The translations under genes were made by a program, and so were the position numbers. A stretch of DNA of 64,000 bases from a virus. Shown here piece by piece: positions 9,201 to 49,353 of the stretch. The DNA lies in the IMG/VR virus record IMGVR_UViG_3300031841_004047; one strand, written 5' to 3'. Position 1 is the stretch's first letter. Every line of letters starts with the position of its first letter. The notes beneath the pieces were generated by a model that worked only from the letters and a program-made list of their open reading frames with translations, had not been told where the DNA came from and made no database searches.

Positions 9201-9847
9201 GCACCACACAAGCATATGCATCTTCAGGACTCTTTAATAATGATGGAACGAAGATGTATCTTAATATTCAAAGAATGCCGGTTTTGTCAAATACAGCCAT
9301 TATAGAATATGATTTATCAACAGCGTATGATCTGACGACAATATCACGTACCAGTATTCAATACTTAACTACCGGAACTGGAAATCCTGGCGCTGGACCT
9401 AGAGGAATGGCTTGGAACGGTGATGGAACAAAATTAATTACACTGAATGAGGCGGGTAATTTATTTAGATTTAGCACAGGTGCAAATACTCTTAGTTATA
9501 GCACATCAGAAACTTGGGTTGATGGCACAAACAACAACGAACATGCCACGCTGCAACAAGCACTAGGAGCACAATCGTTTAACAGAATGAACAAAGCACA
9601 GCTAGATGCAGTGGCTGATGGTTATCACTTTAGTCAGGATAGCGCTGATACTCTGGATCTTATGATTGCTCCTTATGCAGCTTCTGGAGCAAGTCCTATT
9701 TCAGATGGTGTTACAATTAACTATGATGCAGAAGTTTTAGTTAGAGAAGCGGTGGCTGGTACAGACTATATCGCAGAATTTCCATCTCCAAACAGACTGG
9801 ACATCAAGTCGCTCATAAACGGTAACCTCAAGATAAGGGCTCAGTAA
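6242..9847 (+). CDS. Virion appendage protein with multiple beta-propeller repeats
   Basis: About 15 repeats of F(S/N)xDGTK(M/L)F/Y...EYxLSTAWD(I/L)S; N-terminus MASNARNLSKLLG resembles those of other fibre genes. Confidence 0.75.
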   Translation: MASNARNLSKLLGTSTQVPTTALPQAIADLETIGTSLTGGDIAPKNISSNTLTQSFDSNQTVNFIMSDSIDTISPIISVFKEVPQPGVSSKGNWDVNANATNYDFYDEKPISYSSVSLTPSATGDGTFTSSNPVISGYVIANASLDTDSFDPSSQETSPQGLDISPDGTKLIVVGDADDALDYYTLSTPFDLSSATYDGTTSAINSNPYGCRFSSTGHKIFVSRNQADDVYEIPLSTNYDASTAGAFQSSGNLTTLSGNAQADFNGIHFSSDGTKMFSCDEANNKVHEYTLSTAWDITTLSYVHAFDISSQDTIVNDLAFTDDGTRMFILGSQTGYIYEYGLTQAWDVSSASYSNISLAQTNGRGMTFSNSGQKMYLCKIGAAELIRYSTSSSTAFNSSDVGKKVVGNSGTAVITSTAGAYTSVTPFADTSAISSWQLFGAEGKSDGTGIQLSGYSNKYDLVNATYTTISPYLNQAEGYNYMSFKPDGTKVWVGGQQSDTIYEYNLGTGFDLSTITYSTSFAFATSSQSQGFAIKSDGTRAYIQDFNSAIRQLDLSTAWNISTATFNSVSLGTTVYNKGLYIKPDGTKLYTIGTGSNIREYTLSTPWDLSNYSLDNTVTLASPVTSNDIYFSADGTKFFVPQSTGGRFVNAYSLSTAWDTSSTITFITSFSLPEIGSYTPQAVSFNTDGSAMYVINGENASTSPARRILEYATGSTLHPYSQYSPALTNSSSGQINSSSWTDINSMTSDETKNSGDIFYAVSTDNRASWGVAKASDGVRKIARNNSGTWQYNNNAGTPVLTGYDFTNFAYDNVTASTGISGNNEEIRFNNDGTKLYILSDNGPNGDGVYQFSLSTAYDISTLSYDSVYYNSTQGASVRDIQFNADGTKMFILHSNTKTIYRYSLSTAFNVGTASYDNVSLLVNYAAANAPMGFFFNGDATKLYLIWAGGSNSGDSTIYERQLPGAYDISSATAVSTFLYNEPDLPAGTTQAYASSGLFNNDGTKMYLNIQRMPVLSNTAIIEYDLSTAYDLTTISRTSIQYLTTGTGNPGAGPRGMAWNGDGTKLITLNEAGNLFRFSTGANTLSYSTSETWVDGTNNNEHATLQQALGAQSFNRMNKAQLDAVADGYHFSQDSADTLDLMIAPYAASGASPISDGVTINYDAEVLVREAVAGTDYIAEFPSPNRLDIKSLINGNLKIRAQ

Positions 9848-12333
9848 TGGTTAGTAAAGCTTTATCACTCGCAAAACTATTAGGTGACAACAATAAGTTG
9901 TCCACGGATACTTTTGGGGACGATGTTTCTACGATTGAACAAGCTTCAAGCACTGACGTATTAACTAACTTAGGCAATGCTGTTGGAGATCAAAGACTAG
10001 TAGGAAGTAATCTTTATATCTGGAACGGAACGGGCTGGTACAGGATTGCTTTGATTAATCAAACTCCTACATGGGATTCCGGTGGTCAGCCTTCTGGTTC
10101 TTATGTGCTGGATGCAGATAGTCCACAAGATGCTACCGTTATTACGTTAGCAGCAAGTGATCCAGACGGTTTACCAATATCATATAGTTATGTCACATCT
10201 GGTTCAATGGACTCGATGGCAACAATATCTCAAGACTCGAGTATCTTTACAATTACTCCTAAAACAGTTGCGCAAGTAGGAGAAGGCGTTGAATTAACTG
10301 GTAGTATTACTTTCAGAGCATCTGACGGTGTCAATATTCTTCCTTCAGTTTCATCATTTACATTGAGTTTTATTACCAGTCTAGAAAACAGTAGGTACAC
10401 AACTTTATTGGCAACAGCAGTTGATACTAGCGATAATAATAACATAACCGATAGTTCAACTAGCAACCATACGATCACAGTAACTGGTGATGCTCATGCC
10501 GGCACGTTTAGTCCGTATCGGCACGGTGGATATAGCACTTACTTCGATGGAAATGGGGATTATATTGGTGTAGGTTCAGCTATAGTTCCTACAGCATATG
10601 ATACTGATTACACCATTGAAATGTGGATATACCCAACCACTACAGGTTCGAGGGAAGATATATTTAATCAATATGCGGCAACTGCCAGTGGCAGAATGGC
10701 TATAAATATTAATACCGATGCTACTATTTCTTTTTTCCAAAACGGGCTATCCCCAGCGGAAACAAAATCCTCTGCTATATCTGCTAATAACTGGTATCAT
10801 CTAGCAGTAGTTAATTCCAGTGGAACCAGATCTTTTTATGTTAATGGAAGTTTAATTGGGACCGCTACTGGAACCGCAAGTATGTATAACGGAAATACTG
10901 AAATTGGTCGCTTGGGTGATGTAGGTTCAAATTATTTTACAGGTTATATTACTGATGTAAGAGTAGTAAACGGAACCGCGGTATACACTGGCAGTTTTAC
11001 CCCACCAACAGATCGTCTTACCGCTGTAGCAAACACTTCTCTACTTACTTGCCACCTTCCATACATAGCAGATGGTTCTTCTAGCGCTCACTCAATCACA
11101 GTGAACGGCGACACTTCAACAAAACCATTCACTCCTTACGACAACTTAGAATACGCAGCAGCAGATCACGGTGGGTCGGTGGTCTTTGATGGGTCTGGGG
11201 ATTATCTAACATATTCTGCTGGTAATGAAATAGGATTTAGCACAGGTGATTTTACTGTTGAGTTTTGGGCGTACAATAAGTTTTCAACTGGAAGTCTGCA
11301 AAAAATTATTGAAACAAGAACGGCATCAAATTGGATTATCCAGATTGCTTCAACTAACCATTTTCAATGGTACAATGGCTCAACTACTGTATTTAATTAT
11401 GACATTTCTTATACGAAAAATACATGGGCACATTTTGTAGTAACAAGAGATGGGACAACTCTTCGATTGTTTGTAAATGGTAGACTTGTAAGCACTACTA
11501 CAGATAGTGTTTCTTATTCGGTGTCGTCAGGAACTGTATATATTTCTAGAAGATATAACGATAACTTAGATTATTTTTCTGGGTATTTAACTGATTTGCG
11601 AATAGTTAAAGGCAGTGTTGTTACGGAGTATCAAACTTCTTCTACAACTACAGATACCCAAATATTTACCCCACCAACTGCCCCTCTTACAGCAATTACA
11701 GACACTTCACTACTTATCTCAGGTACAGATGCTTCTATTATTGATAAGTCACAAACCAGCAATTTAAAACTTGTTGGAAACACCACTGGTTCAACCGCTC
11801 AGGCTAAGTTTGCGAATACTAAGTCAATGTATTTTGATGGGAACGGGGATAGCGTGTTTGTGCCTTACGAGAGTATCCCCAGCTTTGGAATAATAGAATT
11901 TACTATTGAGGGCTGGATCTATATGAACAACCTTACAGGAAACCAACTGATCGTAGACAAATGGGTTTCTGGCAACTCTCAAGGTTTTCAATTTTATCAT
12001 AGGTCTACAGGGTCATCATTGACGTTTTACGTTGGAAACGTAATCGTTGTTCAAGACCCAAGCAGTTCCAGTATTTCGGCGCAGACATGGCACCACGTTG
12101 CTGTAACTAGAGATTCAGGTGCTAACGTAAGATTATATGTGGATGGCCTTAAAAAAGCTCAGTCCTTTTCCCCTGTAAGTTTAGATAACACGCTTCCTTT
12201 ACGTTTGGGCGCATCGGCAACATCAACCAATTACTTCAATGGTTATATGCAAGATGTCAGGCTGAGTAACAAGGCTCTTTACACTGCTGATGACGAAAGT
12301 AGTAACATCCCATCCGAACCACTGAAAGGATAG
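9847..12333 (+). CDS. Stalk + 3x LamG fibre/appendage protein, paralogue B
   Basis: YIWNGTGWY motif, cadherin/Ig-like ASDPDGLPISYSY...FRASDG, three LamG-like domains. Confidence 0.85.
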   Translation: MVSKALSLAKLLGDNNKLSTDTFGDDVSTIEQASSTDVLTNLGNAVGDQRLVGSNLYIWNGTGWYRIALINQTPTWDSGGQPSGSYVLDADSPQDATVITLAASDPDGLPISYSYVTSGSMDSMATISQDSSIFTITPKTVAQVGEGVELTGSITFRASDGVNILPSVSSFTLSFITSLENSRYTTLLATAVDTSDNNNITDSSTSNHTITVTGDAHAGTFSPYRHGGYSTYFDGNGDYIGVGSAIVPTAYDTDYTIEMWIYPTTTGSREDIFNQYAATASGRMAININTDATISFFQNGLSPAETKSSAISANNWYHLAVVNSSGTRSFYVNGSLIGTATGTASMYNGNTEIGRLGDVGSNYFTGYITDVRVVNGTAVYTGSFTPPTDRLTAVANTSLLTCHLPYIADGSSSAHSITVNGDTSTKPFTPYDNLEYAAADHGGSVVFDGSGDYLTYSAGNEIGFSTGDFTVEFWAYNKFSTGSLQKIIETRTASNWIIQIASTNHFQWYNGSTTVFNYDISYTKNTWAHFVVTRDGTTLRLFVNGRLVSTTTDSVSYSVSSGTVYISRRYNDNLDYFSGYLTDLRIVKGSVVTEYQTSSTTTDTQIFTPPTAPLTAITDTSLLISGTDASIIDKSQTSNLKLVGNTTGSTAQAKFANTKSMYFDGNGDSVFVPYESIPSFGIIEFTIEGWIYMNNLTGNQLIVDKWVSGNSQGFQFYHRSTGSSLTFYVGNVIVVQDPSSSSISAQTWHHVAVTRDSGANVRLYVDGLKKAQSFSPVSLDNTLPLRLGASATSTNYFNGYMQDVRLSNKALYTADDESSNIPSEPLKG

Positions 12334-12579: not shown

Positions 12580-15129
12580 ATGCCAAGTAAAAGTAGGTTA
12601 GTATCTAAAGCTTTCAGTACTTCTGGGGTTTTATCGACTATAGCGTCTGAAAACCCGACCGTTGATACAGGAACTACACAAATCGCAAACGTTGATGCTC
12701 TTCCTACTTCAGGAAATGAAACTGGTGATCAACTTTTCATTGAAGCTACTAATAGATTGTATATATGGAACGGGTCTGGCTGGTACAACATAGCTCTTAT
12801 TAATACAAGTCCAACGTGGGATTCTGGAGGGCAACCCGCTGCATCCTATGAGTTAGACGTTGATAGCCCACAAGATGCTACGATAATAAGTTTAGCTGCG
12901 TCTGATGCTGAAGGCTTGCCGATTCAGTATTCATACGTCACGTCTGGATCAATGGACTCGATGGCAACTATCAGCCAAGATTCATCAGTGTTCACAATTA
13001 CTCCAAAAACAGTTGCGCAAGTAGGAGAAGGTGTTGAATTAACTGGTAGTATTACTTTCAGAGCATCTGACGGTGTAAATATTCTTCCTAGTATATCTAG
13101 TTTTGTTCTTAATTTTGTTTTCACTGTAGAAAATAGCAAGTATACAACTCTATTGTTAGAAGCGGTTGATACTTCAGATAACAATAATATAATCGATTCA
13201 TCTTCCAACAACCACGCTATCACGGTAACAGGGGATGCTAGAGCCAGCTCGTATAGTCCGTATCGTCATGGTGGGTATAGTACTTATTTTGATGGGACTG
13301 GAGATAAACTATCCGTATCTAATAATTCAAATTTTGATGTTGGCTCTAATGATTTTACTTTGGAATTTTGGTATTATCCTCAAACATCAGTTCTTAATGG
13401 ATTTATAGCGGGTTATTACTCATCAACAAATAATCAACGTAGTTATGCTATCCGTCACGACGATGTAACCGGTAATTTATCAATGGTCTTTTCTACCGAT
13501 GGAACCTTCCAAAGTGGAAATGCCACTTCAAGTAACATAACACCAACAGACATGAATAATAAATGGAATCATATTGCTATTACAAAATCAGGAACAACAG
13601 CAAAGCTCTGGCATAATGGTAATTTAGTGGCAACTAATTCATCAGCACCAACAACATTATATTCACCGACATCCGGTCCTTTTAATATAGGTACATTTAA
13701 TGATAGCACTTACATACAAGGATATCTAACAGATGTTAGGTTAGTGGTTGGTACGGAATTATACACCAGCAACTTTACTCCACCATCTACACGTCTTACC
13801 GCCATAACAAATACTTCATTACTCACCTGCCATCTCCCGTACTTTGCGGATGGTTCTACCAACAATCATGCTATTACTGTAAGCGGCAATCCTGTAACGA
13901 GTCCGTTTGGTCCCTATGACAACAAAAAATACTCAGCATCAAGTCACGGAGGGTCTGTGTATTTCGATGGGTCTGGGGATTATCTAACTATTTCAAATGA
14001 TACTTCGCTAAACTTAGCAAATACAAGTTTTACGATTGAGTGTTGGGTATTTCCTATGCTTGACTATAGTAACTATAGAACTATTTTTTGTAAGCGGGTC
14101 AGTGGTAGCTTAACTACAAGTTATCAGGGCTATTTAGCCACTAGCACCGGCAGAATTGGATTTTATAATGGGACAGTTTATGAAAGTTCCACTGTTTTAG
14201 TAAGTAATGCTTGGAGCCATTGTGCGTGGGTATATGATGGCACAAATATTAAAATTTTTGTAAATGGCACTCAGGTGCTTTCTCAAACTACAAGTATATC
14301 TGAGATAGATGAGCCTCTCTCTATTGGATTTACAAGAGGATATACTGAAATATTCGGCGGATATATTTCTGATTTTAGAATAGTCAAAGGCACCGCTGTT
14401 TATACTGGTAATTTCACTCCACCAACCTTTCCTCTTACTGCAGTTACAAACACTTCACTACTTCTCTCGGGCACTGACGCATCTATCATAGATAAGTCAC
14501 AAACCAGCAATTTAAAACTTGTTGGAAACACTACTGGTTCAACAACTCAGGTTAAGTTTACGGATACAAAATCTATATATTTTGCTTCAGTCTCGCAGAC
14601 CGATTACGCTAGTTCAAAACATGGTGGACTTTTATCTTTAAGTGGACCATTTACAATTGAATTTTGGTGCAATATGAATACTGGAGGAGCTGTTAATTAT
14701 ACCGCTTTCTTTTATTGGACCGGAACCAATTATGTGGCAAGGTTAACAGATAGTGGATTTGGTAATAGATTACAACTTTGTTTTGACGCTGGGGCACAGA
14801 CTGGTATTTATGCAGTGAATGCAACTCGAACATACTTAGCAGGCCTTGGTTGGTTTCATTTTGCATGGACAAGAGATAATAATAATGATAATAGAATATT
14901 TATTAATGGAAGTATAGTAAATGTTACTGGAGGCTCTAATTGGTCCTCCTATCCATCTCCAAGTTCATTCCCACTAAGTTCTTTTAATGACAATAGAACA
15001 CTTGGCAGTTCTGCTGATTTTGTTTTTGCCGCTGGAGATGGTGGTTATGTTCAAGACTTCAGAGTCACTAAAGGTCTCGCAAGATACACCGCAAACTTTA
15101 CACCGCCAACCGAACCACTTTTAGGATAA
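12580..15129 (+). CDS. Stalk + 3x LamG fibre/appendage protein, paralogue C
   Basis: Same stalk and family C-terminus (DFRVTKGLARYTANFTPPTEPLLG). Confidence 0.85.
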   Translation: MPSKSRLVSKAFSTSGVLSTIASENPTVDTGTTQIANVDALPTSGNETGDQLFIEATNRLYIWNGSGWYNIALINTSPTWDSGGQPAASYELDVDSPQDATIISLAASDAEGLPIQYSYVTSGSMDSMATISQDSSVFTITPKTVAQVGEGVELTGSITFRASDGVNILPSISSFVLNFVFTVENSKYTTLLLEAVDTSDNNNIIDSSSNNHAITVTGDARASSYSPYRHGGYSTYFDGTGDKLSVSNNSNFDVGSNDFTLEFWYYPQTSVLNGFIAGYYSSTNNQRSYAIRHDDVTGNLSMVFSTDGTFQSGNATSSNITPTDMNNKWNHIAITKSGTTAKLWHNGNLVATNSSAPTTLYSPTSGPFNIGTFNDSTYIQGYLTDVRLVVGTELYTSNFTPPSTRLTAITNTSLLTCHLPYFADGSTNNHAITVSGNPVTSPFGPYDNKKYSASSHGGSVYFDGSGDYLTISNDTSLNLANTSFTIECWVFPMLDYSNYRTIFCKRVSGSLTTSYQGYLATSTGRIGFYNGTVYESSTVLVSNAWSHCAWVYDGTNIKIFVNGTQVLSQTTSISEIDEPLSIGFTRGYTEIFGGYISDFRIVKGTAVYTGNFTPPTFPLTAVTNTSLLLSGTDASIIDKSQTSNLKLVGNTTGSTTQVKFTDTKSIYFASVSQTDYASSKHGGLLSLSGPFTIEFWCNMNTGGAVNYTAFFYWTGTNYVARLTDSGFGNRLQLCFDAGAQTGIYAVNATRTYLAGLGWFHFAWTRDNNNDNRIFINGSIVNVTGGSNWSSYPSPSSFPLSSFNDNRTLGSSADFVFAAGDGGYVQDFRVTKGLARYTANFTPPTEPLLG

Positions 15130-15131
15130 AC

Positions 15132-17660
15132 ATGAGTAGGACAAGATCTATATCAAGAGCTTTTGGTTCATCTGGTGTTCTATCAGCCGTTACATCAGCA
15201 GTTCCATTTTTTGATAATCAGAAATCAAGCGTGGCTGGTGTTTCAAACTTACCTGATGTTGGAAATGAGGTTGGTGATCAAGTATTCGTTCAAGCTACAA
15301 ATAGAATCTATTACTGGAACGGATACGGCTGGTACAACATCGCTGTTGTAAACAACAGTCCGACTTGGGATTCAGCAGGACCTCCCAGTTCATCATATAC
15401 GTTAGACGCTGACAGCCCGCAAGATGCTACCGTTATTACTTTATCTGCCTCTGATCCTGATGGACTGCCGTTAAGTTATTCTTACGTAACTAGCGGATCC
15501 ATGGACTCGATGGCCACGATCAGCCAAGACTCAAGTGTCTTTACGATCACTCCTAAAACAGTTGCGCAAGTAGGCGCAGGAGTTGAACTAACTGGATCAA
15601 TTACTTTCAGTGCATCTGATGGAGTTAATATTTTACCTCATGTATCAAGTTTTACACTTAGCTTTATATTCGAAGTTGATAACAGTAGGTATACAACATT
15701 ACTCTTAGACGTTGTAGACACTTCAGACAACAATACCATAGTTGATTCATCATCAAATAATGAAACCATAACTGTTTATGGGAACCCTAGTGCCGGTACG
15801 TTTAGTCCATACCGGCATGGTAGCTACACTAACTATTTTGATGGAACTAATAGTTATATACGTTTTAATAACAATGAATTAGAAATAACCACGGAAGATT
15901 TTACAATTGAAGCATGGATAAATTGTAAAGTAGGAACTACAATGTACATTGCAGCAAATGCTATATGGTACCAAGGAGATAATAGAGGTTGGAGGTTGAG
16001 TATTGATACTTCTGGATTGATAAGTTTAAGTGCCTCTCAAGGTGTTTGGAACACCTTTCCAAATATTTATACTTCTACGAATGCCATAACAAGTGATGAA
16101 TGGAATCATATTGCTATATGCAGAGAATCTGGAGTTATTAGTTCATATATAAATGGTATTAAAGATCCAACGACTGTAACTTATTCTTCCTCACTAAATC
16201 AACTTGGAGATAATGACGGAAGTCCCAACGCAGCTATTTCTTATGTTGGAACTTATTTAGCAGATAATATAATCCGCAACCCTTTTCTTGGAAATATGGC
16301 TGATTTTCATTTTAAACTTGGTTCAGCAAAATATAATTCTAATTTTGATGTTCCAACCGAAAGATTGACTGCTGAAACTGGCACCACTATACTATTATTT
16401 AATGATGGAAGGGAAGTAAAAGATAACTCTGTAAACAACTATTCTTTTACTAATGCCTCAGTAGGTTTTAAGCCTCCGGGTCTCTATGACAACTTGGAAT
16501 ACTTGGCGACAGATCATGGTACATCTATATATTTTGATGGCTCTGGGGATACACTGGAACTACAATCAAGTGTTGCAAACGTGGTGTCAGTCGACTTTAC
16601 TGCCGAGTGCTGGATATATCCACGCGTTCTTGGTGGAGCTATAATGGATAAGGATCATAAACCAAATGTATCTTTTCCATTATGGGCTTTAACTATATCA
16701 AGTACAGGTGTACTTAACAACTTTATTGGTAGCGGTAACGGAACTTCAAGTTCTCAACTAATATCAACTGCAGCGGGTGTCATCAAACTAAATACGTGGC
16801 ACCACATTGTTGTTACTAAAAGCGGAAGTACACTTACAACTTATGTTGATGGTGTTCAAGAATCTAGTGCTACAATAACTGCAAACCTAATTGATGGAGG
16901 AAAGCCTTTTTATATCGGTTCGAGATCAAAGACCGATCAATGGTTTAATGGCTATATAGCAGACCTTCGATTTGTAAAAGGATCTGTTCTCTATACTTCC
17001 AACTTTACACCACCAACAGCGCCTTACACTACTTCTACTGGTCTGGATCTTCATCTCAAAGGAACGGAAGCTTCAATCATAGATAAGTCCCAGACTAATA
17101 ATCTCCAGCTTGTTGGAAACACTACTGGATCAACCACTCAAACTAAGTTTGCTAATACTAAGTCAATGTATTTTGATGGAACTGGAGATTATGTAATAAT
17201 AAATGATACTAACATAGCCAATTTTGGAACAAGTGATTTTACTATTGAAACGTGGGTTTATTGTGAAGATACTAATACAAATCAAATAATTGAAACAAGA
17301 CCAAGCAATACAAACGGATCATATATCTCTGCTGGTATTCAAGCCGGGTCAGGAATTTTCTTTTATACCAATAATGCATACGCACATACAGGTACTAGGA
17401 TAGGGACTATTAATACCGGTCAATGGCACCATGTTGCCTGGGTTCGTTACAATGGAACAATTACTTCATACATTGATGGAGTAAGTGTAGGCTCTGCATC
17501 AAATACTACAAATGTTATTTCAAGTAATACTTATATCGGATGGAATGCTTTTGCTGGAGACAACACTGGTTCAGTTTATATTCAAGATTTTAGAGTTACT
17601 AGAAACATAGCAAGATATACCGCAAACTTTACACCACCAACCGCACCGTTTAAAGGTTAA
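15132..17660 (+). CDS. Stalk + 3x LamG fibre/appendage protein, paralogue D
   Basis: Same architecture; last domain nearly identical to that of paralogue A. Confidence 0.85.
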   Translation: MSRTRSISRAFGSSGVLSAVTSAVPFFDNQKSSVAGVSNLPDVGNEVGDQVFVQATNRIYYWNGYGWYNIAVVNNSPTWDSAGPPSSSYTLDADSPQDATVITLSASDPDGLPLSYSYVTSGSMDSMATISQDSSVFTITPKTVAQVGAGVELTGSITFSASDGVNILPHVSSFTLSFIFEVDNSRYTTLLLDVVDTSDNNTIVDSSSNNETITVYGNPSAGTFSPYRHGSYTNYFDGTNSYIRFNNNELEITTEDFTIEAWINCKVGTTMYIAANAIWYQGDNRGWRLSIDTSGLISLSASQGVWNTFPNIYTSTNAITSDEWNHIAICRESGVISSYINGIKDPTTVTYSSSLNQLGDNDGSPNAAISYVGTYLADNIIRNPFLGNMADFHFKLGSAKYNSNFDVPTERLTAETGTTILLFNDGREVKDNSVNNYSFTNASVGFKPPGLYDNLEYLATDHGTSIYFDGSGDTLELQSSVANVVSVDFTAECWIYPRVLGGAIMDKDHKPNVSFPLWALTISSTGVLNNFIGSGNGTSSSQLISTAAGVIKLNTWHHIVVTKSGSTLTTYVDGVQESSATITANLIDGGKPFYIGSRSKTDQWFNGYIADLRFVKGSVLYTSNFTPPTAPYTTSTGLDLHLKGTEASIIDKSQTNNLQLVGNTTGSTTQTKFANTKSMYFDGTGDYVIINDTNIANFGTSDFTIETWVYCEDTNTNQIIETRPSNTNGSYISAGIQAGSGIFFYTNNAYAHTGTRIGTINTGQWHHVAWVRYNGTITSYIDGVSVGSASNTTNVISSNTYIGWNAFAGDNTGSVYIQDFRVTRNIARYTANFTPPTAPFKG

Positions 17661-18403: not shown

Positions 18404-18432
18404 TTTACAAAAACGAATATATAGTTTATAAT
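18404..18432 (+). promoter_or_regulatory. Sigma70-type early promoter TTTACA-17-TATAAT
   Basis: Exact 17-bp spacing; divergent from the late promoter; precedes the gap operon. Confidence 0.8.
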
Positions 18433-18452: not shown

Positions 18453-18599
18453 ATGTTTGAAGTTGTAATTGCAGAATCAAAAGAAGTTATCATGACATCC
18501 AGTCGTAAAGAAGACGCCGAAGCTTGCTTAAGATCACTTCTTGAAGTAGATAAGGTGGATGCTTTTATTAGACAAACTAAAGTATTGTTAAATGAATAA
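18453..18599 (+). CDS. Small hypothetical protein (48 aa, MFEVVIAESKEVIM...)
   Basis: Manual translation; GGAGAGG RBS; TAATG overlap with the next gene. Confidence 0.65.
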   Translation: MFEVVIAESKEVIMTSSRKEDAEACLRSLLEVDKVDAFIRQTKVLLNE

Positions 18600-18838
18600 T
18601 GTCTGATTATGAAGCAGAAAAAATAGTTAAGAAGACTTTAGCCGTACGAAGGAAAATAAGAGAATTCTATAGTGAGTTTCCTCAGTACTGTCCATATGGT
18701 TATAAGTTGAAAGATAATCCCACGAAAGCTCAGACTAATAAAACTATAACTAAAAAAGTTATGGCAAAATATGTTGAACCTGAAGTTGTTGAATTAGTCG
18801 ATGATATAAAAGCCAAATTAAAAATGAGAACAAAATGA
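18599..18838 (+). CDS. Hypothetical protein
   Basis: Translationally coupled on both sides. Confidence 0.6.
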   Translation: MSDYEAEKIVKKTLAVRRKIREFYSEFPQYCPYGYKLKDNPTKAQTNKTITKKVMAKYVEPEVVELVDDIKAKLKMRTK

Positions 18839-19803
18839 GAGTTGGTATAAACGGTTTTGGTAGAATTGGCCGATGTCTTGCTAGGCATATAATGCAGGAC
18901 AGAGACGACATGGAACTTGTACAGATAAATGCTAGTGGAGATCCAGAGCAGAACATCCACCTTTTAAAGTATGATAGCGTTCATGGAAGATTTACTCCAA
19001 GGGAAGATCTGACGTATAAGATAAGCTGGAGTCATTCACGTGATAATAAATTTTTAAGTTGGGATGATGTTGATGTGGTATTTGAATGTACTGGTGCTTA
19101 TAACGACGGAGATGTTGCGGTTCATCACATTAATTACGGTAAAGCAAAAAAGGTCTTAATTAGTGCTCCAGCAGTCAACGTAGATAGAACTGTTGTATAC
19201 GGCGTAAACGATAACGAATTAAAATCATCAGATAAAATTGTAAGCAACGCTAGTTGTACGACTAATTGTTTAGCTCCACTGGCAAAAGTATTAGATCAGG
19301 CTTTTGGAATTGAAAGCGGGCAGATGACAACGGTTCATAGTTTTACGGGTGATCAAGGCACAATAGATCGAAGACATAGGGATATGTACAGAGCTCGAGC
19401 TGCTGGATCTAATATGATACCAACAAGTACTGGAGCTGCAAAGGCTTTAAAACACGTTTATCCAAAGCTTGAAGGTAAGATAATGGGTAGCGCCATACGT
19501 GTTCCAACTCAAAACGTAAGCTGTGTGGATCTTACGGTTAATTTAAATACAGACGTCACCAAAGAACTCATTAATGACACAATGTCTCTTGCAAGTCAAA
19601 ATGGATTCAAAGGCATTATTGGTTATGAAGAACTCCCTTTGGTGAGTAGTGATTTTAATACTACAGTTGAGAGCTGCATTTTTGCTCCTGAACAAACTAG
19701 AGTCGTAAATAAAAGAATGGTCAGAGTCTTAGCGTGGTACGATAACGAATGGGCCTTTAGCTGTAGAATGGCAGACGTAGGAAAAAAAATGCAATTAATG
19801 TGA
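18835..19803 (+). CDS. gap: Type I glyceraldehyde-3-phosphate dehydrogenase (auxiliary metabolic gene)
   Basis: GINGFGRIG dinucleotide-binding loop, YDSVHG, catalytic NASCTTNC, TTVHS, IPTSTGAAK, RVPT, WYDNEW. Confidence 0.95.
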   Translation: MRVGINGFGRIGRCLARHIMQDRDDMELVQINASGDPEQNIHLLKYDSVHGRFTPREDLTYKISWSHSRDNKFLSWDDVDVVFECTGAYNDGDVAVHHINYGKAKKVLISAPAVNVDRTVVYGVNDNELKSSDKIVSNASCTTNCLAPLAKVLDQAFGIESGQMTTVHSFTGDQGTIDRRHRDMYRARAAGSNMIPTSTGAAKALKHVYPKLEGKIMGSAIRVPTQNVSCVDLTVNLNTDVTKELINDTMSLASQNGFKGIIGYEELPLVSSDFNTTVESCIFAPEQTRVVNKRMVRVLAWYDNEWAFSCRMADVGKKMQLM

Positions 19804-19806
19804 TTA

Positions 19807-19851
19807 AAATGCATTTTAGCTGTTTACTTTTCATGAAAACTAGTTTATAGT
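19807..19851 (+). promoter_or_regulatory. Early promoter TTTACT-17-TATAGT with upstream AAATGCATTT
   Basis: GTTTAC at 19822-19827, -10 at 19846-19851. Confidence 0.75.
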
Positions 19852-19882: not shown

Positions 19883-20842
19883 ATGGCACATATGGTTGAA
19901 ACAATGGCATACGCAGGAGAACTACCTTGGCACGGTCTTGGTGTTCCAGTAAGTAATGATCTTACACCTGCTCAAATGCAGCAAAAAGCAGGCCTTGACT
20001 GGAATGTTGAAAAGGTGGATGCTTTCGTAAACATTGGTGGTCAACAAGTAAAAACTGGACAGCAAGCACTTGTACGTACAAGTGATAATACAATCCTTAC
20101 CAACGTAGGTGAGGGCTGGAACCCAGTTCAAAACTCTGAAGCTTTTGATTTCTTCACCGACTTCGTAATGGAAGGTGATATGGAGATGCATACGGCTGGA
20201 TCGTTGAAGAATGGTCAGATCGTATGGGCTCTAGCAAAAGTAAAAGAGTCTTTTGATATTTTTGGTGAGGATCGTGTAGACGCATACTTCTTGTTTTCAA
20301 ATCCACATCAGTACGGTAAAGCAATTGATGTTCGATTTACGCCAATCCGTGTTGTCTGCAACAATACGCTCACGATGAGCTTAAATACCGAGTCAGAGCG
20401 TGCTGTAAAGATCGGTCACCGTACATCATTCGATGCTGACTTAGTAAAAGAAAAGCTTGGACTCGCAACCGAAAAGTTTGCGAAGTATAAAGAGATGGCA
20501 CAATTTCTTGGTTCCAAGCGTTTCAAAGTTGAAGATCTTATTCAGTACTACAATGAGGTGCTTCCTTCAACTTCACGTAAAGAAGCTGAACCACTAGCAG
20601 TTACTGCGTATGATGATCTTTCACGTGGAGCAAAGATGTGCTACGATGCACTTGAAACTCAACCTGGTGCTGAATACGGTGCTGGAACATGGTGGCAAGC
20701 TTTTAACTCTGTCACTTACTTCACTGATCATCATCAAGGACGTAACGCAGAAAATCGTCTACACTCACAGTGGTTTGGTGGAAATCAGCTGAAAAAAGTA
20801 AAAGCTGCTGAGAAAGCAGTCCAATACGCGATGGCCTCTTAA
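19883..20842 (+). CDS. DUF932 / TIGR03299-like phage-plasmid protein
   Basis: PWHGLG...AGLDW, TAGSLKNG, TPIRVVCNNTL, TWWQAFNSVT motifs. Confidence 0.85.
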   Translation: MAHMVETMAYAGELPWHGLGVPVSNDLTPAQMQQKAGLDWNVEKVDAFVNIGGQQVKTGQQALVRTSDNTILTNVGEGWNPVQNSEAFDFFTDFVMEGDMEMHTAGSLKNGQIVWALAKVKESFDIFGEDRVDAYFLFSNPHQYGKAIDVRFTPIRVVCNNTLTMSLNTESERAVKIGHRTSFDADLVKEKLGLATEKFAKYKEMAQFLGSKRFKVEDLIQYYNEVLPSTSRKEAEPLAVTAYDDLSRGAKMCYDALETQPGAEYGAGTWWQAFNSVTYFTDHHQGRNAENRLHSQWFGGNQLKKVKAAEKAVQYAMAS

Positions 20843-20858
20843 GGCCATCAACCCTTTT
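20830..20858 (+). terminator. Possible intrinsic terminator
   Basis: GATGGCC-6-GGCCATC hairpin (stop codon in the loop) followed by aacccttttt. Confidence 0.4.
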
Positions 20859-21704: not shown

Positions 21705-21764
21705 AAGAACTTTGACTATGTGTTAATATATAAAATTGTAATTAACTATAGGAGAAAAATTACA

Positions 21765-22727
21765 ATGGAACTTGTAACTCTCTGGATGGCAGTCGGATTC
21801 TTATTCGCTGCCTATTCAGTTATTGCCAACGATTCTGTACAGACTCTCGGTACTTGGATCGCATCAAACAATGAGAGATTTAATTGGAAAGTTATGTGGG
21901 GAGCAGCAAGTGCAGTACTGCTCTACACCTTATGGTACGGTTGGTACATGAACGGAGGCGACATTAGTTACGGTCGTCTAAATAAGATTCCGTTTCAAGA
22001 AATCCAATGGTACCATGCAGCTGCACCAGGTTTGCTTTTAATACTAACAAGAATAGGCGTACCGGTAAGTACGTCTTTTTTAGTTTTATCTGCTTTCGCT
22101 TCAACGTTCGTTCTTGAAAAAATGCTTATGAAATCTATGATGGGGTATGCTGTTGCAGCAGTAGCGGCATATGCTATATGGATTATAGTTAGTAGGATAT
22201 TAGATGAAGCAAAACCAGTAAAAGAAGAACATAAGAAATTATGGCGAATAGGCCAATGGGTAACTACTGGATTTCTTTGGTTCACTTGGTTAAGCCACGA
22301 TATGGCTAATATTGCCGTTTTTCTTCCAAGACAGATACCGATTGATTTAATGATTGTTGTCAGTTCAGTATTTGTTTTTGGTCTCTGGTATATGTTTCGA
22401 GAAGGTGGAGGTAAGATCCAAAGAATTGTTCTTGAAAAACATAATACACGTTATGTCAGATCGGCCACAATTATTGATCTGGTGTATTGGCTTATTTTAT
22501 TTTTCTTTAAAGAACTAAACGATATTCCAATGTCGACAACTTGGGTATTTGTTGGTTTACTATGTGGTAGAGAATTAGCAATGGCAACCGTCACGGGTAA
22601 AGAAAAATTTAAAGTCGTTTTTCCTTTAATAGGAAAGGACTTTCTAAAAATGATGGTAGGACTTGCGGCTTCAGTCGGCGTGGTGCTTGCTATACATTAC
22701 ATAATAGTACCTAATGGTCTTCACTAA
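21765..22727 (+). CDS. PiT/PHO4-like multi-pass membrane transporter (putative phosphate permease)
   Basis: Start MELVTL at 21765 after AGGAG; about 9-10 TM helices; two-fold repeated signature ANDSVQTLG...PVSTS and SHDMANIA...PMSTT, matching the PiT pattern GANDxAN...PVSTTH. Confidence 0.65.
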   Translation: MELVTLWMAVGFLFAAYSVIANDSVQTLGTWIASNNERFNWKVMWGAASAVLLYTLWYGWYMNGGDISYGRLNKIPFQEIQWYHAAAPGLLLILTRIGVPVSTSFLVLSAFASTFVLEKMLMKSMMGYAVAAVAAYAIWIIVSRILDEAKPVKEEHKKLWRIGQWVTTGFLWFTWLSHDMANIAVFLPRQIPIDLMIVVSSVFVFGLWYMFREGGGKIQRIVLEKHNTRYVRSATIIDLVYWLILFFFKELNDIPMSTTWVFVGLLCGRELAMATVTGKEKFKVVFPLIGKDFLKMMVGLAASVGVVLAIHYIIVPNGLH

Positions 22728-22757
22728 AAAAGGGGAGCTTCGGCTCCCCTTTCTTTT
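22728..22757. terminator. Bidirectional intrinsic terminator with UUCG tetraloop
   Basis: AAAAGGGGAGC-TTCG-GCTCCCCTTT flanked by A and T runs, between convergent genes. Confidence 0.9.
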
Positions 22758-41402: not shown

Positions 41403-43619
41403 ATGCAAACTAAGTTTGTTGACACTAGGCAGTTGTTGTCTGAAGCAAAATTTTATGACGGTTATTCAAGATTTAATGATGAAAAGAATAGGTATGAAAC
41501 ATGGGATGAGGCCGTTGATCGTGTTATGAGTATGCACGAAAACTTTTATTCATCTAAAATGAATAACCTTACCGACTACATCGAAGAAGCGAGAGATGCT
41601 TACAAGAAACAATACGTCCTTGGTGCTCAACGTGCACTTCAGTTTGGTGGAGAACAAATCTTAAAACATCAGATGAGGATGTATAACTGTACCTCTTCTT
41701 ATGCTGATAGATCTGAGTTTTTTGGAGAAATCTTTTATATTCTACTATGTGGTGCTGGTGCTGGATTCTCGGTACAGACACATCATGTGAATAAACTTCC
41801 AAAAGTACAAAAAAGAACTAAAGCCCCAAAAACTCATGTTGTGGATGATTCTATCGAGGGATGGGCTAAAGCTGTTGACGTGCTTCTTTCATCATATTTT
41901 ATCGATGGTGGTAAACATCCAGAATATCAAGGTCGTAGAATCTATTTTGATCTATCTCAGATTCGTCCAAAAGGCGCAAAGATTTCCGGTGGATTTAAAG
42001 CACCGGGTCCGGATGGATTACGTCTAGCACTCGATAAGATTGAGCACTTGCTTGAAGCCGCAGTGGTTGATATGAAAGAGCCTATTTCTCTTCGTCCTAT
42101 TCAAGTATATGACATTGTTATGCACGAAGCAGACGCAGTTCTTTCCGGAGGTGTTCGTCGTTCAGCAACCATTTGCTTGTTCTCACCAAACGATGAAGAA
42201 ATGATGAATGCTAAAACTGGTAACTGGTTCATGGATAATCCACAGCGTGGTCGTTCAAATAACTCAGCGGTGATAGTAAGAGATGAAGCGACTCCTGAGG
42301 AGTTTAACACTCTTATGGAAAAAGTAAAGCAGTTCGGCGAACCCGGTTTTGTGTTTGTAAAATCAAGAGAGCATACTACAAACCCATGTGTTGAGATTGG
42401 AATGTTCCCACAGATCGATGGACAGTCCGGCTGGCAGGGCTGTAACCTGACCGAAATCAATGGTGGCAAGTGTACATCGTCTGATGAGTTCTATAAAGCT
42501 TGCAGAGCTGCATCTATTCTTGGTACACTTCAGGCTGGTTACACCGATTTTAAATTCTTGTCAGAAACATCAAAGAAAATCTTTGACCGGGAAGCATTGA
42601 TTGGTGCTTCAATCACGGGTTGGATGAATAACCCACACGTTCTTTTCGATGAAGAAGTATTGTCAAGAGGAGCTGAAATTGTTAAGCAAGTTAATAGAGA
42701 AGTTGCTGAAGCTATTGGAATCAATCCTGCGGCCAGAACCACGTGTGTAAAACCATCAGGTAACGCATCAGTACTACTGCAAACCGGTTCAGGTATTCAT
42801 GCAGAACACGCACCAATGTATATCCGCAACGTTCAAATGAACAAGGAATCAGAAGTAACTCAAGCGATTGAAAGAACTAATCCATACATGGTGGAAGAAT
42901 CAGTATGGAGTGCTAATGGAACCGACGTCGTCGTTTCATTTCCAATTCTACCAAAAGAAGGATCAATGTACAAAGACGAGTTACTCGGGGTTAGTCACTT
43001 AGAAAAAGTAAAACTCGCGCAAGCTTCATGGGTTGAAGCTGGAACAAATCCAGAGCTATGCGCTGATGAGGGTGTAAGACATAACGTCTCAAACACAATC
43101 ATCGTAGATGATTGGGATGAGGTAGAAAAGTATGTTTTTGAAAACCGTCATTCTTTTGCAGGGATTTCTTTCTTGCCAATGACAGGTGACAAAGACTATA
43201 ACCAAGCTCCAAACACGGCTGTTATCACGGCGCAGGAAATGGTTGAAAAATATGATACAGCGGCGATATTCGCTTCTGGTCTTGTGGTAGACGCATTGAA
43301 TGCTTTCTCAAACTTATGGCAAGCATGTTCCACCGCTCAAGGTATGGGAGACGATCTAACTCTTGATAGTGCTGAAAACGCATTGAAGAGAGACTGGGTT
43401 CGTAGGTTTAATAATTTTGCAGATAATTATTTGAAAGGAGACGTTAAGCAAGCAGAACATTGTTTAAAAGACTCTTATCTTCTTCATAAGTGGAATAAAA
43501 TCAATAAGAACTTTAAACCAATCGAGTGGAAGTATGATCTCACCGAGAAGAAGTATACAGATGTTGATACGTTAGGAGCAGCCGCCTGTGCAGGCGGGGC
43601 GTGTGAAATAGACTTCTAG
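41403..43619 (+). CDS. nrdJ: Ribonucleotide reductase, probably class II monomeric B12-dependent (RTPR/NrdJm)
   Basis: YNC, GAGAGFS, RPKG..I.GG.A.GP, GGVRRSA, TNPCVEI, GCNLTEIN, KPSG, C-terminal CAGGAC; no ATP cone; no nrdB in the window. Confidence 0.75.
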   Translation: MQTKFVDTRQLLSEAKFYDGYSRFNDEKNRYETWDEAVDRVMSMHENFYSSKMNNLTDYIEEARDAYKKQYVLGAQRALQFGGEQILKHQMRMYNCTSSYADRSEFFGEIFYILLCGAGAGFSVQTHHVNKLPKVQKRTKAPKTHVVDDSIEGWAKAVDVLLSSYFIDGGKHPEYQGRRIYFDLSQIRPKGAKISGGFKAPGPDGLRLALDKIEHLLEAAVVDMKEPISLRPIQVYDIVMHEADAVLSGGVRRSATICLFSPNDEEMMNAKTGNWFMDNPQRGRSNNSAVIVRDEATPEEFNTLMEKVKQFGEPGFVFVKSREHTTNPCVEIGMFPQIDGQSGWQGCNLTEINGGKCTSSDEFYKACRAASILGTLQAGYTDFKFLSETSKKIFDREALIGASITGWMNNPHVLFDEEVLSRGAEIVKQVNREVAEAIGINPAARTTCVKPSGNASVLLQTGSGIHAEHAPMYIRNVQMNKESEVTQAIERTNPYMVEESVWSANGTDVVVSFPILPKEGSMYKDELLGVSHLEKVKLAQASWVEAGTNPELCADEGVRHNVSNTIIVDDWDEVEKYVFENRHSFAGISFLPMTGDKDYNQAPNTAVITAQEMVEKYDTAAIFASGLVVDALNAFSNLWQACSTAQGMGDDLTLDSAENALKRDWVRRFNNFADNYLKGDVKQAEHCLKDSYLLHKWNKINKNFKPIEWKYDLTEKKYTDVDTLGAAACAGGACEIDF

Positions 43620-44421: not shown

Positions 44422-44898
44422 TTGTGGTATTTTAATGATGAAGAATTCGATCCTCTCAAGTATTCATACGAAAACTTGGCGGGTTTCGTTTATATGATTA
44501 CTGATCTAACAAATAACAAGAAATATATCGGTAAGAAAAACTTTTGGGCGATTCAGAGATTAAAACCTCTAAAAGGAAAGACGAGAAAAAGAGTAGTTAA
44601 AAAAGAATCTGATTGGATGACATATCATGGTTCTAACGAAGAAGTAAAATACCTTGTTGAAACAGAAGGTAGCAAGAGATTTAAAAGAGAAATTCTCAGA
44701 CTTTGCAAAAGTAAAGGAGAAATGACTTATTTTGAGATGAAAGAACAGTTCGATCGTGAAGTATTATTTAGTGATGAGTATTATAATGAGTTCATTGGAG
44801 GAAAAATTCATTCTAAACACGTCAAAGGGATAATAACACGAGGAGAAACCCATGGCCCATCAGAACGAGTACGATGTACACATAGTCAAAGTAGTTGA
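44422..44898 (+). CDS. GIY-YIG family endonuclease
   Basis: GFVYMITDLTNNKKYIGKK, YHGS, FKREIL, E...YYN; TTG start uncertain. Confidence 0.8.
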   Translation: MWYFNDEEFDPLKYSYENLAGFVYMITDLTNNKKYIGKKNFWAIQRLKPLKGKTRKRVVKKESDWMTYHGSNEEVKYLVETEGSKRFKREILRLCKSKGEMTYFEMKEQFDREVLFSDEYYNEFIGGKIHSKHVKGIITRGETHGPSERVRCTHSQSS

Positions 44899-48462: not shown

Positions 48463-48667
48463 GAACAATCATACTTGGGACGTTGTTTGCAGCTGGGATG
48501 AACTTCAAACAGTTCTTGATGAAATGCCTGATGTTGTTCAAGTTCTATCGGCTCCTAAAATAGTTAGTAGTGTAGGTAACTTACACTCTAAAGTTCCAAG
48601 TGGATTCAAAGAAGTTTTAAATAAAGTTAAAGCTGGTTCAGGAAGAGAAAATACTATTAAAACATGA
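48434..48667 (+). CDS. Conserved T4-like small protein (MPSYTLKD...GFKEVLNKVK)
   Basis: Start reassigned to 48434; ATGA overlap with phoH. Confidence 0.7.
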   Translation: MPSYTLKDIKNNHTWDVVCSWDELQTVLDEMPDVVQVLSAPKIVSSVGNLHSKVPSGFKEVLNKVKAGSGRENTIKT

Positions 48668-49353
48668 AAAAGAATAATGCGTTAATTGTTTCAAATGATG
48701 AATTAGAAAACATCGAACCTTCTACAGAAAATCAAAGTAAAGCTTTTAAAGCTTGGAAGGATGGTTATAACTTAGTTTTAAGTGGTTCCGCGGGTACTGG
48801 AAAAACATACATTGCTCTTTATCTGGCATTTAAAGAGCTTTTAGATAATCCTGATATATACAGACAGGTGATGATTCTTAGGTCTATGGTTGCAACCAGA
48901 GATAACGGACACTTACCTGGGACTAAATCTGAAAAGGAAGCTCCGTATCAATTACCATATAAAAATATTTGTCATGAGCTTTTTGGATATACGGGAGCTT
49001 ATGGTAAGCTTTCTTCTTCGAACAAACTGGTCTTTGAGACTACTTCTTATATTAGAGGTGCAACTTTTGATCAGACAATTATAATCGTAGATGAAATGCA
49101 AAACTTAAACTTTCATGAGTTAGACTCAGTAATAACTAGGTTTGGGAATGACTGTAGAATTATTTTCGCTGGTGACTATTATCAAACGGATTTTAAGTAT
49201 ACAGATGATAAAGAAGGGATCATAAAGTTTATAAGTATAGTTGAGCAAATGAGATTTTTTAGAGTTATCAACTTTGGTTGGGAAGACATTATTAGATCAG
49301 ACCTTGTAAGAGATTATATCATGACGAAAGAGATGCTAAACATAGGAGCATAA
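48664..49353 (+). CDS. phoH: PhoH-family ATPase
   Basis: GSAGTGKT, RSMVATRDNGHLPG, YIRGATF, IVDEMQN, GDYYQTD. Confidence 0.92.
   Translation: MKKNNALIVSNDELENIEPSTENQSKAFKAWKDGYNLVLSGSAGTGKTYIALYLAFKELLDNPDIYRQVMILRSMVATRDNGHLPGTKSEKEAPYQLPYKNICHELFGYTGAYGKLSSSNKLVFETTSYIRGATFDQTIIIVDEMQNLNFHELDSVITRFGNDCRIIFAGDYYQTDFKYTDDKEGIIKFISIVEQMRFFRVINFGWEDIIRSDLVRDYIMTKEMLNIGA

What the first reader, a model, noticed from the sequence alone, without database searches (positions are those of the whole stretch)
18835..19803. Phage-encoded GAPDH with an NADP-type cofactor signature in an early operon
Seen: intact catalytic motif; INAS instead of IND at the Asp32 position; DRRH instead of DLPH at 186-190; translationally coupled behind a perfect sigma70 promoter. 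Known: Asp32 enforces NAD specificity, and B. subtilis NADP-dependent GapB has INAS. GAPDH is rarely reported as a phage gene. Inference: the enzyme redirects triose-phosphate flux to make NADPH for glutaredoxin/RNR-driven dNTP synthesis, a different route from cyanophage zwf/gnd/talC/cp12. The DRRHxDxYRARAA loop resembles, from memory, Rhodobacterales paralogues.
Basis: partly seen in the sequence, partly recalled or inferred. Interest (0 to 1): 0.74.

Follow-up and report, generated by a model that had tools for sequence, protein, structure and literature searches.

The report
Phage GAPDH with NADP-type cofactor pocket
A marine T4-like phage carries an intact sugar-metabolism enzyme (GAPDH) whose cofactor pocket looks built for NADP(H); it belongs to a large family found on uncultured phage DNA, and its usual neighbours there suggest it helps build sugar phosphates for nucleotides rather than generate NADPH.

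Summary
ORF 18835-19803(+) is an intact type I GAPDH (TIGR01534 above cut-off; model TM 0.92 to solved GAPDHs). It has Ala at the Asp32 site (INAS, as in B. subtilis GapB, PDB 8wwz) and Arg-Arg at S-loop 187-188. It sits third in an overlapping ORF array behind a GTTTACA-17-TATAAT promoter (11 of 12, not perfect).

It is not a chimera. The window is T4-like phage DNA, and the gene's GC3 matches its neighbours. 39 low-GC IMG/VR loci carry relatives, three of them on contigs with a gp23 capsid gene.

All 168 sequences sampled around the phage clade (viral loci plus unnamed metagenome proteins) keep Ala32, two basic residues at 187-188, Arg77 and Cys/His. Their sister group is a Rhodobacteraceae paralogue with the same signature, sitting in tandem with a classical Asp32 gap.

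The proposed direction (making NADPH for RNR) is not supported. In 22 non-redundant viral loci gap lies within 4.5 kb of PckA in 9 and close to (within ~0.8 kb of) a class I aldolase in 6. Prs occurs on 4 of 5 large contigs. This points to NADPH-consuming gluconeogenesis toward PRPP. None of these partner genes lies in this window.

Virus-encoded gap was already reported from viromes in 2013. This scan's first readers flagged the same gene type on other phage DNA.

The parts
18404..18432 (+). Promoter-like site GTTTACA-17-TATAAT in the divergent intergenic region ahead of the ORF array
   Evidence: 11 of 12 matches to the sigma-70 consensus. One of 4 such + strand sites against 0.38 expected. 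An AGGAGAGG-like ribosome-binding site follows.
18453..18599 (+). Small ORF (48 aa), first in the array; no family match
   Evidence: Sequence read. No Pfam hit. Its stop overlaps the next start (TAATG).
18599..18838 (+). 79-aa ORF, no family match. Its last 7 codons lie inside the gap cassette leader and its stop overlaps the gap start (ATGA).
   Evidence: A 53%-identical homologue lies upstream of gap in L004/L005.
18815..19809 (.). Block of 91.6% nucleotide identity to three IMG/VR contigs (L001-L003). It covers exactly gap plus a 20-nt leader, and the flanks are unrelated. This is a single-gene cassette.
   Evidence: blastn; alignments of both borders.
18835..19803 (+). gap: type I phosphorylating GAPDH, 322 aa, with Ala at the Asp32 site, Arg-Arg at 187-188, and an 11-residue deletion after YDSVHGR
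19883..20842 (+). DUF932 protein, next gene on the same strand; often near gap in related phage contigs
   Evidence: Pfam PF06067 at 6.6e-41; phrog_1221; homologues in L001, L002, L021 and L031-33.
20830..20849 (+). Terminator-like hairpin (8 pairs) followed by a T run at the end of the DUF932 gene; possible end of the transcription unit
   Evidence: This is a consensus scan only.

Best explanation
The gene is a working, phage-owned type I GAPDH, an auxiliary metabolic gene of a marine T4-like (Kyanoviridae-like) myophage. It belongs to an old, strongly conserved GAPDH clade found on viral contigs and on unnamed metagenome proteins that interleave with them. Its sister group is a GapB-like paralogue of Rhodobacteraceae. 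The cofactor pocket lacks the Asp32 carboxylate that excludes NADP, and it presents two basic S-loop residues (187-188) plus Arg77 toward the 2'-phosphate. The enzyme most likely uses NADP(H). It is probably transcribed early from a GTTTACA/TATAAT promoter, the class also found ahead of the RNR gene. During infection it most likely runs in the reductive (gluconeogenic) direction, 1,3-bisphosphoglycerate + NADPH to glyceraldehyde-3-phosphate. That would pull carbon from organic and TCA-cycle acids up to triose, hexose and pentose phosphates and PRPP for nucleotide and sugar-nucleotide synthesis. In related phages the same job is shared with phage PckA, class I aldolase and Prs. Shown here: gene integrity, viral ownership, conservation of the signature, the phylogeny, the neighbour statistics and the cassette borders. 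Inferred: cofactor preference, reaction direction and timing.
For: Identity and integrity.

Viral ownership:
- Phage genes lie on both sides.
- gap GC3 is 0.294 against 0.264 +/- 0.037 for the other window genes.
- 39 low-GC IMG/VR loci carry relatives.
- A gp23 capsid gene lies on the same contig in G006, G008 and G010.
- There are 65 synonymous against 10 non-synonymous codon differences versus L001.

Signature: 168 of 168 sequences sampled around the phage clade (29 viral loci, 139 metagenome proteins) have Ala32, Ser/Thr33, two basic residues at 187-188, Arg at the 77 site and Cys/His. Only 1 of 119 nearest 50%-cluster representatives has a basic pair there.

Literature: D34A and G188T/P189K or G188V/P189R give E. 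coli GapA NADP+ activity (PMC9145139). Positions 188 and 77 contact the 2'-phosphate (PMC3728087). GapB is the NADP-preferring gluconeogenic form in several bacteria (PMC12663938).

Phylogeny: the NA-type versus IND-type split has support 100, the Rhodobacteraceae clade 96, and the core phage clade 99.

Direction:
- PckA (318 bits) lies within 4.5 kb of gap in 9 of 22 non-redundant viral loci.
- Class I FBA (3.7e-45 to PDB 2iqt) lies close to gap (0 to ~0.8 kb) in 6 of 22, directly abutting it in L022.
- The contig whose gap is 81% identical to this one also has gp23 and PckA.
- Prs is present on 4 of 5 large contigs.

Promoter class.
Against: No enzyme assay exists for any member of this clade or for the Rhodobacteraceae paralogue. 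Ala32 mutants of NAD enzymes are dual-specific rather than NADP-specific. This window has no pckA, fba or prs in its 64 kb, and the rest of the genome could not be seen. The module argument is therefore by association with relatives at 59-81% identity. GAPDH is reversible, and NADP-dependent GAPDHs raise the NADPH yield when glycolytic flux is imposed. The host is unknown. The promoter scan as a whole is not enriched over shuffles in this region (12 found against 17.8 expected).
Confidence: 0.55

Rival explanations
1. One reading: the enzyme runs oxidatively (glyceraldehyde-3-phosphate + NADP+ + Pi to 1,3-bisphosphoglycerate + NADPH). Lower glycolysis or the ED pathway then yields NADPH for RNR-linked dNTP synthesis.
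For: The NADP-type pocket is the same evidence as above. The promoter class is shared with the class II-like RNR gene at 41403-43619. Swapping NAD-GAPDH for NADP-GAPDH raises the NADPH yield about 1.8-fold in E. coli (PMC12663938). Cyanophages set a precedent for boosting NADPH (PMC4053976). This window itself shows no gluconeogenic partner genes.
Against: The commonest neighbour in related phages is PckA, the gluconeogenic entry step, together with class I FBA and Prs. GapB-type enzymes are assigned to gluconeogenesis wherever tested. From general biochemistry, high cellular NADPH/NADP+ ratios favour the reductive direction. No glutaredoxin or thioredoxin was found in the window.
Confidence: 0.25
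2. A dual-cofactor 'redox valve': together with the host's NAD-GAPDH the phage enzyme forms a cycle that shuttles reducing equivalents between the NAD and NADP pools, with little net carbon flux.
For: Ala32 variants are typically dual-specific. Rhodobacteraceae keep an NA-type and an IND-type gene in tandem, so the two forms do coexist in cells.
Against: There is no direct evidence. The cycle would normally dissipate NADPH (inference from usual pool ratios). It does not explain the linkage to PckA, FBA and Prs.
Confidence: 0.08
3. An ordinary NAD-dependent glycolytic booster: the signature is misleading and the enzyme simply adds GAPDH capacity for ATP production.
For: GAPDH is reversible and the core chemistry is intact. 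A second, IND-type phage GAPDH lineage exists (L035-L038), so phages do carry NAD-type gap as well.
Against: Removing Asp32 cut NAD+ efficiency about 450-fold in E. coli GapA. Ala32 and the basic pair are invariant in 168 of 168 sequences, which argues for selection on an NADP pocket.
Confidence: 0.07
4. Assembly chimera or host contamination: the gap gene is bacterial DNA joined to a phage contig.
For: Most GAPDH hits in the INPHARED phage collection look like host contamination. One clade member sits on a contig binned as a Gemmatimonadota MAG (L040).
Against: Composition and GC3 match the phage, whereas the cellular relatives have about 58-60% GC. Phage genes flank the gene on both sides. 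The same gene at 97-98% amino-acid identity lies on three independent viral contigs from different samples. Relatives share contigs with gp23. No sampled cellular genome has a match above 63% identity.
Confidence: 0.02

Closest known systems
Bacillus subtilis GapB (NADP-preferring gluconeogenic GAPDH; PDB 8wwz)
   Same: Same fold and chemistry. The INAS motif at the Asp32 site is identical. The S-loop 187-188 is not Leu-Pro. A gluconeogenic role is suggested by context.
   Different: Only about 48% identical. Not an orthologue: NF005830 scores 373.8 bits against a cut-off of 546, and the tree groups the gene with alphaproteobacterial GAPDHs. GapB has Asn-Pro at 187-188 where this protein has Arg-Arg. 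The phage enzyme is 11 residues shorter.
Rhodobacteraceae GapB-like paralogue (Ruegeria, Sulfitobacter, Planktomarina and others), first gene of a tandem gap pair near tkt
   Same: Closest cellular relative (57-62% identity). It has Ala32-Thr33 and Arg-Arg at 187-188 and the DRRHxDLYRARAA loop. It is the sister clade in the tree.
   Different: It is chromosomal, about 58-60% GC and 333 aa. It has Tyr where the phage clade has Arg77. It is paired with an Asp32-type paralogue 0.3 kb downstream. I found no biochemical study of it.
Virus-encoded gap and other central-carbon AMGs in marine viromes (Hurwitz, Hallam & Sullivan 2013, PMC4053976); PHROG phrog_21942
   Same: gap is listed among carbon genes validated as virus-encoded by linkage, alongside fba and prs. 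The window protein matches phrog_21942 at 9.4e-101.
   Different: That work gives no cofactor signature, phylogeny or gluconeogenic module, and the PHROG is labelled 'unknown function'.
Cyanophage carbon AMGs (talC, zwf, gnd, cp12)
   Same: The overall logic is the same: re-plumb host carbon toward nucleotide precursors early in infection.
   Different: Those genes push carbon through the oxidative pentose-phosphate pathway to make NADPH. Here the context (PckA, FBA, Prs) points upward through gluconeogenesis with NADPH spent. This gap also lacks the CP12-regulated Gap2/GapA signature (Asp32 kept, Ser188).

Membership tests
Type I phosphorylating GAPDH (TIGR01534; Pfam PF00044 + PF02800) | Whole-protein HMM score above the curated cut-off | tested here: met
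   TIGR01534 scores 381.6 bits against 367.2. Both Pfam domains score far above their cut-offs.
Type I phosphorylating GAPDH (TIGR01534; Pfam PF00044 + PF02800) | Catalytic Cys149/His176 and the phosphate-site residues (Thr179, Arg195, Arg231 regions) | tested here: met
   C141, H168, T171, R188 and R222 (window numbering) are invariant across 43 aligned relatives. Cys/His are kept in 168 of 168 sequences.
Type I phosphorylating GAPDH (TIGR01534; Pfam PF00044 + PF02800) | GAPDH two-domain fold | tested here: met
   The AF2 model has pLDDT 87.7 and pTM 0.87. Foldseek gives TM 0.89-0.93 to many solved GAPDHs. The S-loop has low confidence in the monomer model.
Type I phosphorylating GAPDH (TIGR01534; Pfam PF00044 + PF02800) | Measured G3P-oxidising, phosphate-dependent activity | not testable with these tools
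   Needs an enzyme assay.
NADP(H)-using GAPDH of the GapB type (EC 1.2.1.13 / 1.2.1.59) | No acidic residue at position 32 | tested here: met
   Ala aligns with Asp32 of 3doc and with Ala of GapB 8wwz. It is invariant in the clade.
NADP(H)-using GAPDH of the GapB type (EC 1.2.1.13 / 1.2.1.59) | S-loop 187-188 is not Leu-Pro and can contact a 2'-phosphate | tested here: met
   Arg-Arg here; RR, KR, KK or RK in all 168 relatives. Basic substitutions at these positions raise NADP+ activity in E. coli GapA.
NADP(H)-using GAPDH of the GapB type (EC 1.2.1.13 / 1.2.1.59) | Measured preference for NADP(H) over NAD(H) | not testable with these tools
   Needs kinetics. No characterised member of this clade was found in the literature searches.
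NADP(H)-using GAPDH of the GapB type (EC 1.2.1.13 / 1.2.1.59) | Orthology with Firmicutes GapB | tested here: not met
   NF005830 scores 373.8 against a cut-off of 546. The tree places the gene with alphaproteobacterial GAPDHs. The signature is therefore convergent or separately derived.
Erythrose-4-phosphate dehydrogenase (Epd) | Score above the NF010058 / TIGR01532 cut-offs | tested here: not met
   322.7 against 539, and 312.5 against 530.6.
ArsJ-associated GAPDH (arsenate resistance) | Score above the NF033735 cut-off and an adjacent ArsJ transporter | tested here: not met
   320.2 against 450. The neighbours are small ORFs and a DUF932 gene. The nearby permease (21720-22727) is PiT-like, not ArsJ.
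Calvin-cycle Gap2/GapA (CP12-regulated, dual cofactor) | Asp32 retained, with Thr33, Ser188 and Arg77 | tested here: not met
   Ala32 and Arg188 here; only the Arg77 site matches. Features as described in PMC3728087.
Phage auxiliary metabolic gene | The gene sits among phage genes and recurs on viral contigs that carry hallmark genes | tested here: met

The most novel reading that the evidence does not exclude
Uncultured marine T4-like and jumbo phages of heterotrophic bacteria carry a virus-owned gluconeogenic route made of PckA, an NADP-type GAPDH, class I aldolase and Prs. It lifts carbon from TCA-cycle acids to PRPP and mirrors the pentose-phosphate strategy of cyanophages. The GAPDH is a separate clade seen on phage DNA, fixed for Ala32 plus a basic pair at 187-188, that moves between phage genomes as a single-gene cassette. 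This window holds one such cassette.
Probability: 0.4. Interest if true: 0.65.

Novelty: new member of a known kind. Interest (0 to 1): 0.45.

Why it matters
Phage metabolic genes show which host reactions limit virus production. Nearly all worked examples come from cyanophages, which steer carbon into the oxidative pentose-phosphate pathway. A widespread phage GAPDH fixed for an NADP-type pocket, often linked to PckA, aldolase and Prs, suggests a different bottleneck in phages of oligotrophic heterotrophs: getting carbon from organic acids up to sugar phosphates. The enzyme is small, intact and easy to express, so cofactor preference and direction can be tested directly. The same assay would also characterise an unstudied GapB-like paralogue of marine Rhodobacteraceae.

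Tried and rejected
- Chimera or contamination: rejected on composition, flanking genes and recurrence on viral contigs.
- Epd and ArsJ-type GAPDH: both below their cut-offs.
- A functional operon with the PiT-like permease at 21720-22727: the two genes co-occur in 12 loci, but at variable distance and order. I read this as shared residence in a variable region, not coupling.
- Megablast of 20 kb of the window against isolate phages: no match.
- Isolate phages with this gap or this PckA: only contamination-like or distant hits.
The 170-346 kb metagenome contigs that carry close relatives could therefore not be inspected.
- No whole genome is held for the window, so pckA, fba and prs elsewhere in this phage could not be checked.
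- The listing of cluster members gave no useful names.
- The search of 50%-identity representatives collapsed the clade and gave only a motif census.
- PHROG scan of the L040 'Gemmatimonadota' contig: inconclusive.
- Pelagimyophage and OM43-phage papers do not mention gap, pckA or aldolase.
- The direction of transfer between phages and Rhodobacteraceae cannot be read from an unrooted sister relationship.
- The 301-genome alphaproteobacterial sample included two unpublished genomes (G053, G253).

Full report
**What is there.**
ORF 18835-19803(+) encodes a 322-aa protein. It has both GAPDH Pfam domains and scores 381.6 bits on TIGR01534 (type I GAPDH, cut-off 367.2). It falls below the cut-offs for Epd, ArsJ-associated GAPDH and the other GAPDH equivalogs. 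The best solved relatives are Brucella GAPDH 3doc (1.8e-97) and 8wwz (1.7e-95); Foldseek names 8wwz as B. subtilis GapB. An AF2 model (pLDDT 87.7, pTM 0.87) superposes on many GAPDH structures at TM 0.89-0.93. The catalytic Cys and His and the phosphate-site residues are invariant across relatives.

**The two motifs.**
INAS aligns with IND of 3doc and with INAS of GapB, and IDRRH aligns with LDTMH and IDNPH. Position 32 is therefore Ala, and 187-188 are Arg-Arg.

**Upstream region.**
A GTTTACA-17-TATAAT site lies at 18404-18432 (11 of 12 matches). It is followed by three ORFs whose stops and starts overlap: 18453-18599, 18599-18838 and gap. Sites of the form TTTAC[AT]-N16-18-TATAAT occur 4 times on the + strand and never on the - strand, against 0.38 expected. 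Two of the others sit directly ahead of the RNR gene (41332) and the exonuclease gene (46135). From memory, GTTTAC is the -35 element of T4 early promoters. 'Early operon' is plausible, but it is an inference.

**It is phage DNA, not a chimera.**
- The window carries baseplate-wedge-like and virion proteins, DUF6267, a cytidyltransferase, a class II-like RNR, an exonuclease, a SegE-like GIY-YIG endonuclease, PhoH and an endolysin.
- Its DUF6267 protein is 67% identical to that of Phage C48C1 (Kyanoviridae). Next come T4-like phages of Stenotrophomonas, OM43 and SAR11.
- GC is even across the window. gap GC3 (0.294) lies within one SD of the other genes (0.264 +/- 0.037). The closest cellular genes have about 58-60% GC.
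- A pattern-seeded scan of IMG/VR returned 39 loci encoding relatives at 45-98% identity, all with 30-40% GC.
- A gp23-type capsid gene lies on the same contig in G006, G008 and G010. G010 carries a gap 81% identical to this one.
- CheckV estimates imply genomes of about 180-200 kb for some carriers and about 360 kb for others.

**A mobile cassette.**
Nucleotide identity to L001-L003 is 91.6% over exactly 18815-19809. This covers the ORF plus a 20-nt leader. Identity vanishes at both borders, and the neighbouring genes of those contigs match other parts of the window at only 41-59% amino-acid identity. Within the block, 65 codon differences are synonymous and 10 are not. The gene therefore moves between phage genomes as a unit and is under purifying selection.

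**Family and signature.**
- The tree (81 rows, LG+C20 PMSF) splits Asp32-type from Ala32-type GAPDHs with support 100. Within the Ala32 type, the Rhodobacteraceae sequences form one clade (96).
- All viral-contig and metagenome sequences fall on the other side of that branch (65). The core of 37 has support 99 in the first tree.
- Across 29 viral and 139 metagenome sequences, 168 of 168 have Ala32, Ser or Thr33, a basic pair at 187-188, Arg at the site aligned with Arg77, and Cys/His.
- The Rhodobacteraceae paralogue has Ala32-Thr33 and RR or KR in 72 of 73 sequences, but Tyr at the 77 site.
- That paralogue lies 0.3 kb upstream of a second gap that has Asp32 in 59 of 59 sequences. Transketolase lies nearby. 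These genomes hold 3-4 GAPDH genes each.
- In a sample of 301 Alphaproteobacteria the best identity to the window protein was 62%, with three more at 58-59% and the rest at 56% or below.
- Among 119 nearest 50%-cluster representatives many lack Asp32, but only one has a basic pair at 187-188.
- The core phage clade has an 11-residue deletion after YDSVHGR. One phage lineage (L031-L033) keeps full length.

**Cofactor.**
Published mutagenesis shows that replacing this Asp with Ala gives E. coli GapA NADP+ activity and cuts NAD+ efficiency about 450-fold. G188T/P189K and G188V/P189R add NADP+ activity (PMC9145139). In plastid enzymes residue 188 of the neighbouring subunit and Arg77 contact the 2'-phosphate (PMC3728087). 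I therefore put NADP(H) use at about 0.8. It is an inference from sequence, and dual specificity is possible.

**Direction.**
A lead from earlier first-reader notes of this scan was tested here. I took 127 neighbour ORFs within 4.5 kb of gap in 22 non-redundant viral loci.
- The commonest Pfam family was PEPCK_ATP, with 9 loci and a best score of 318 bits.
- A 265-270-aa protein within about 0.8 kb of gap in 6 loci, abutting it in L022, is a class I aldolase. Its Pfam match is weak, but it scores 3.7e-45 over its full length to PDB 2iqt.
- Prs, a KdsA-like enzyme, UDP-glucose dehydrogenase and ThyX also recur.
- G010 has gp23, gap, the aldolase and PckA on one 82-kb contig.
- Prs is present on 4 of 5 large contigs.

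[quoted passage not shown] This favours NADPH-consuming, upward flux toward PRPP. It is less well supported. This window has no pckA, fba or prs and no glutaredoxin, and the rest of the genome is not available.

**What is known.**
Hurwitz et al. 2013 list gap among carbon genes validated as virus-encoded in Pacific Ocean viromes. PHROGs holds a GAPDH family of 'unknown function'. No genuine isolate phage in INPHARED carries this gap or this PckA. Papers on pelagimyophages and OM43 myophages do not mention them. I found no description of the NADP-type signature, of the link to the Rhodobacteraceae paralogue, or of the PckA-gap-FBA association. My literature reach is limited.

**Verdict.**
This is a new member of a known kind (a phage central-carbon AMG), of moderate interest.

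Noticed in passing
window 21720-22727 (+): Membrane protein with a weak PHO4/PiT match. Its nearest Atlas clusters are named 'phosphate/sulfate permease' and are mostly viral. It is 74-88% identical in 12 gap-bearing viral loci, which is more conserved than gap itself, at variable distance and order. A strong terminator-like hairpin follows at 22729-22752.
   Followed up: partly
window 41332, 46135, 34611 (+): Further copies of the GTTTAC[AT]-N16-17-TATAAT promoter-like class. Two lie directly upstream of the RNR gene (41403) and the exonuclease gene (46189). All four are on the + strand, against 0.38 expected.
   Followed up: partly
L035-L038 (IMG/VR), gap at 10001-11005: A second, independent phage GAPDH lineage, 45% identical, with a classical Asp32 (VND...DSHH) signature. 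It lies on T4-like contigs with gp23 (G006).
   Followed up: no
L041-L119, e.g. L043 4995-5996 and 6294-7298: Marine Rhodobacteraceae carry a tandem gap pair: an Ala32/Arg-Arg type followed about 0.3 kb later by an Asp32 type. Transketolase lies about 2 kb upstream. These genomes hold 3-4 GAPDH genes each. I found no biochemical characterisation.
   Followed up: partly
L040 (contig CAZQGS010000032.1, binned as a Gemmatimonadota MAG): A 163-kb contig with 40% GC carries a phage-clade gap (63% identity, Lys-Pro at 187-188) among ORFs with almost no family matches. No gp23 was found in the MAG. It may be a mis-binned large phage.
   Followed up: partly
window 9847-12333, 12580-15129, 15132-17660, 57500-59992, 60031-62556: A series of 830-850-aa paralogous virion proteins. 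The two read in full (12580-15129, 15132-17660) share a conserved N-terminal third and repeated domains ending in a YTxNFTPPT-like motif; 9847-12333 matches baseplate-wedge and virion-protein PHROGs. The two 3' genes (57500-59992, 60031-62556) are grouped by size and position only. They look like diversified host-recognition modules.
   Followed up: no
window 44422-44898 and 48664-49353: A SegE-like GIY-YIG homing endonuclease and a PhoH gene. The endonuclease type could be relevant to the cassette-like mobility of genes such as gap.
   Followed up: no
window gap residues about 55-65; alignment A2: The core phage GAPDH clade lacks 11 residues of the hairpin after YDSVHGR that all cellular relatives and phage lineage L031-L033 retain.
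   Followed up: partly
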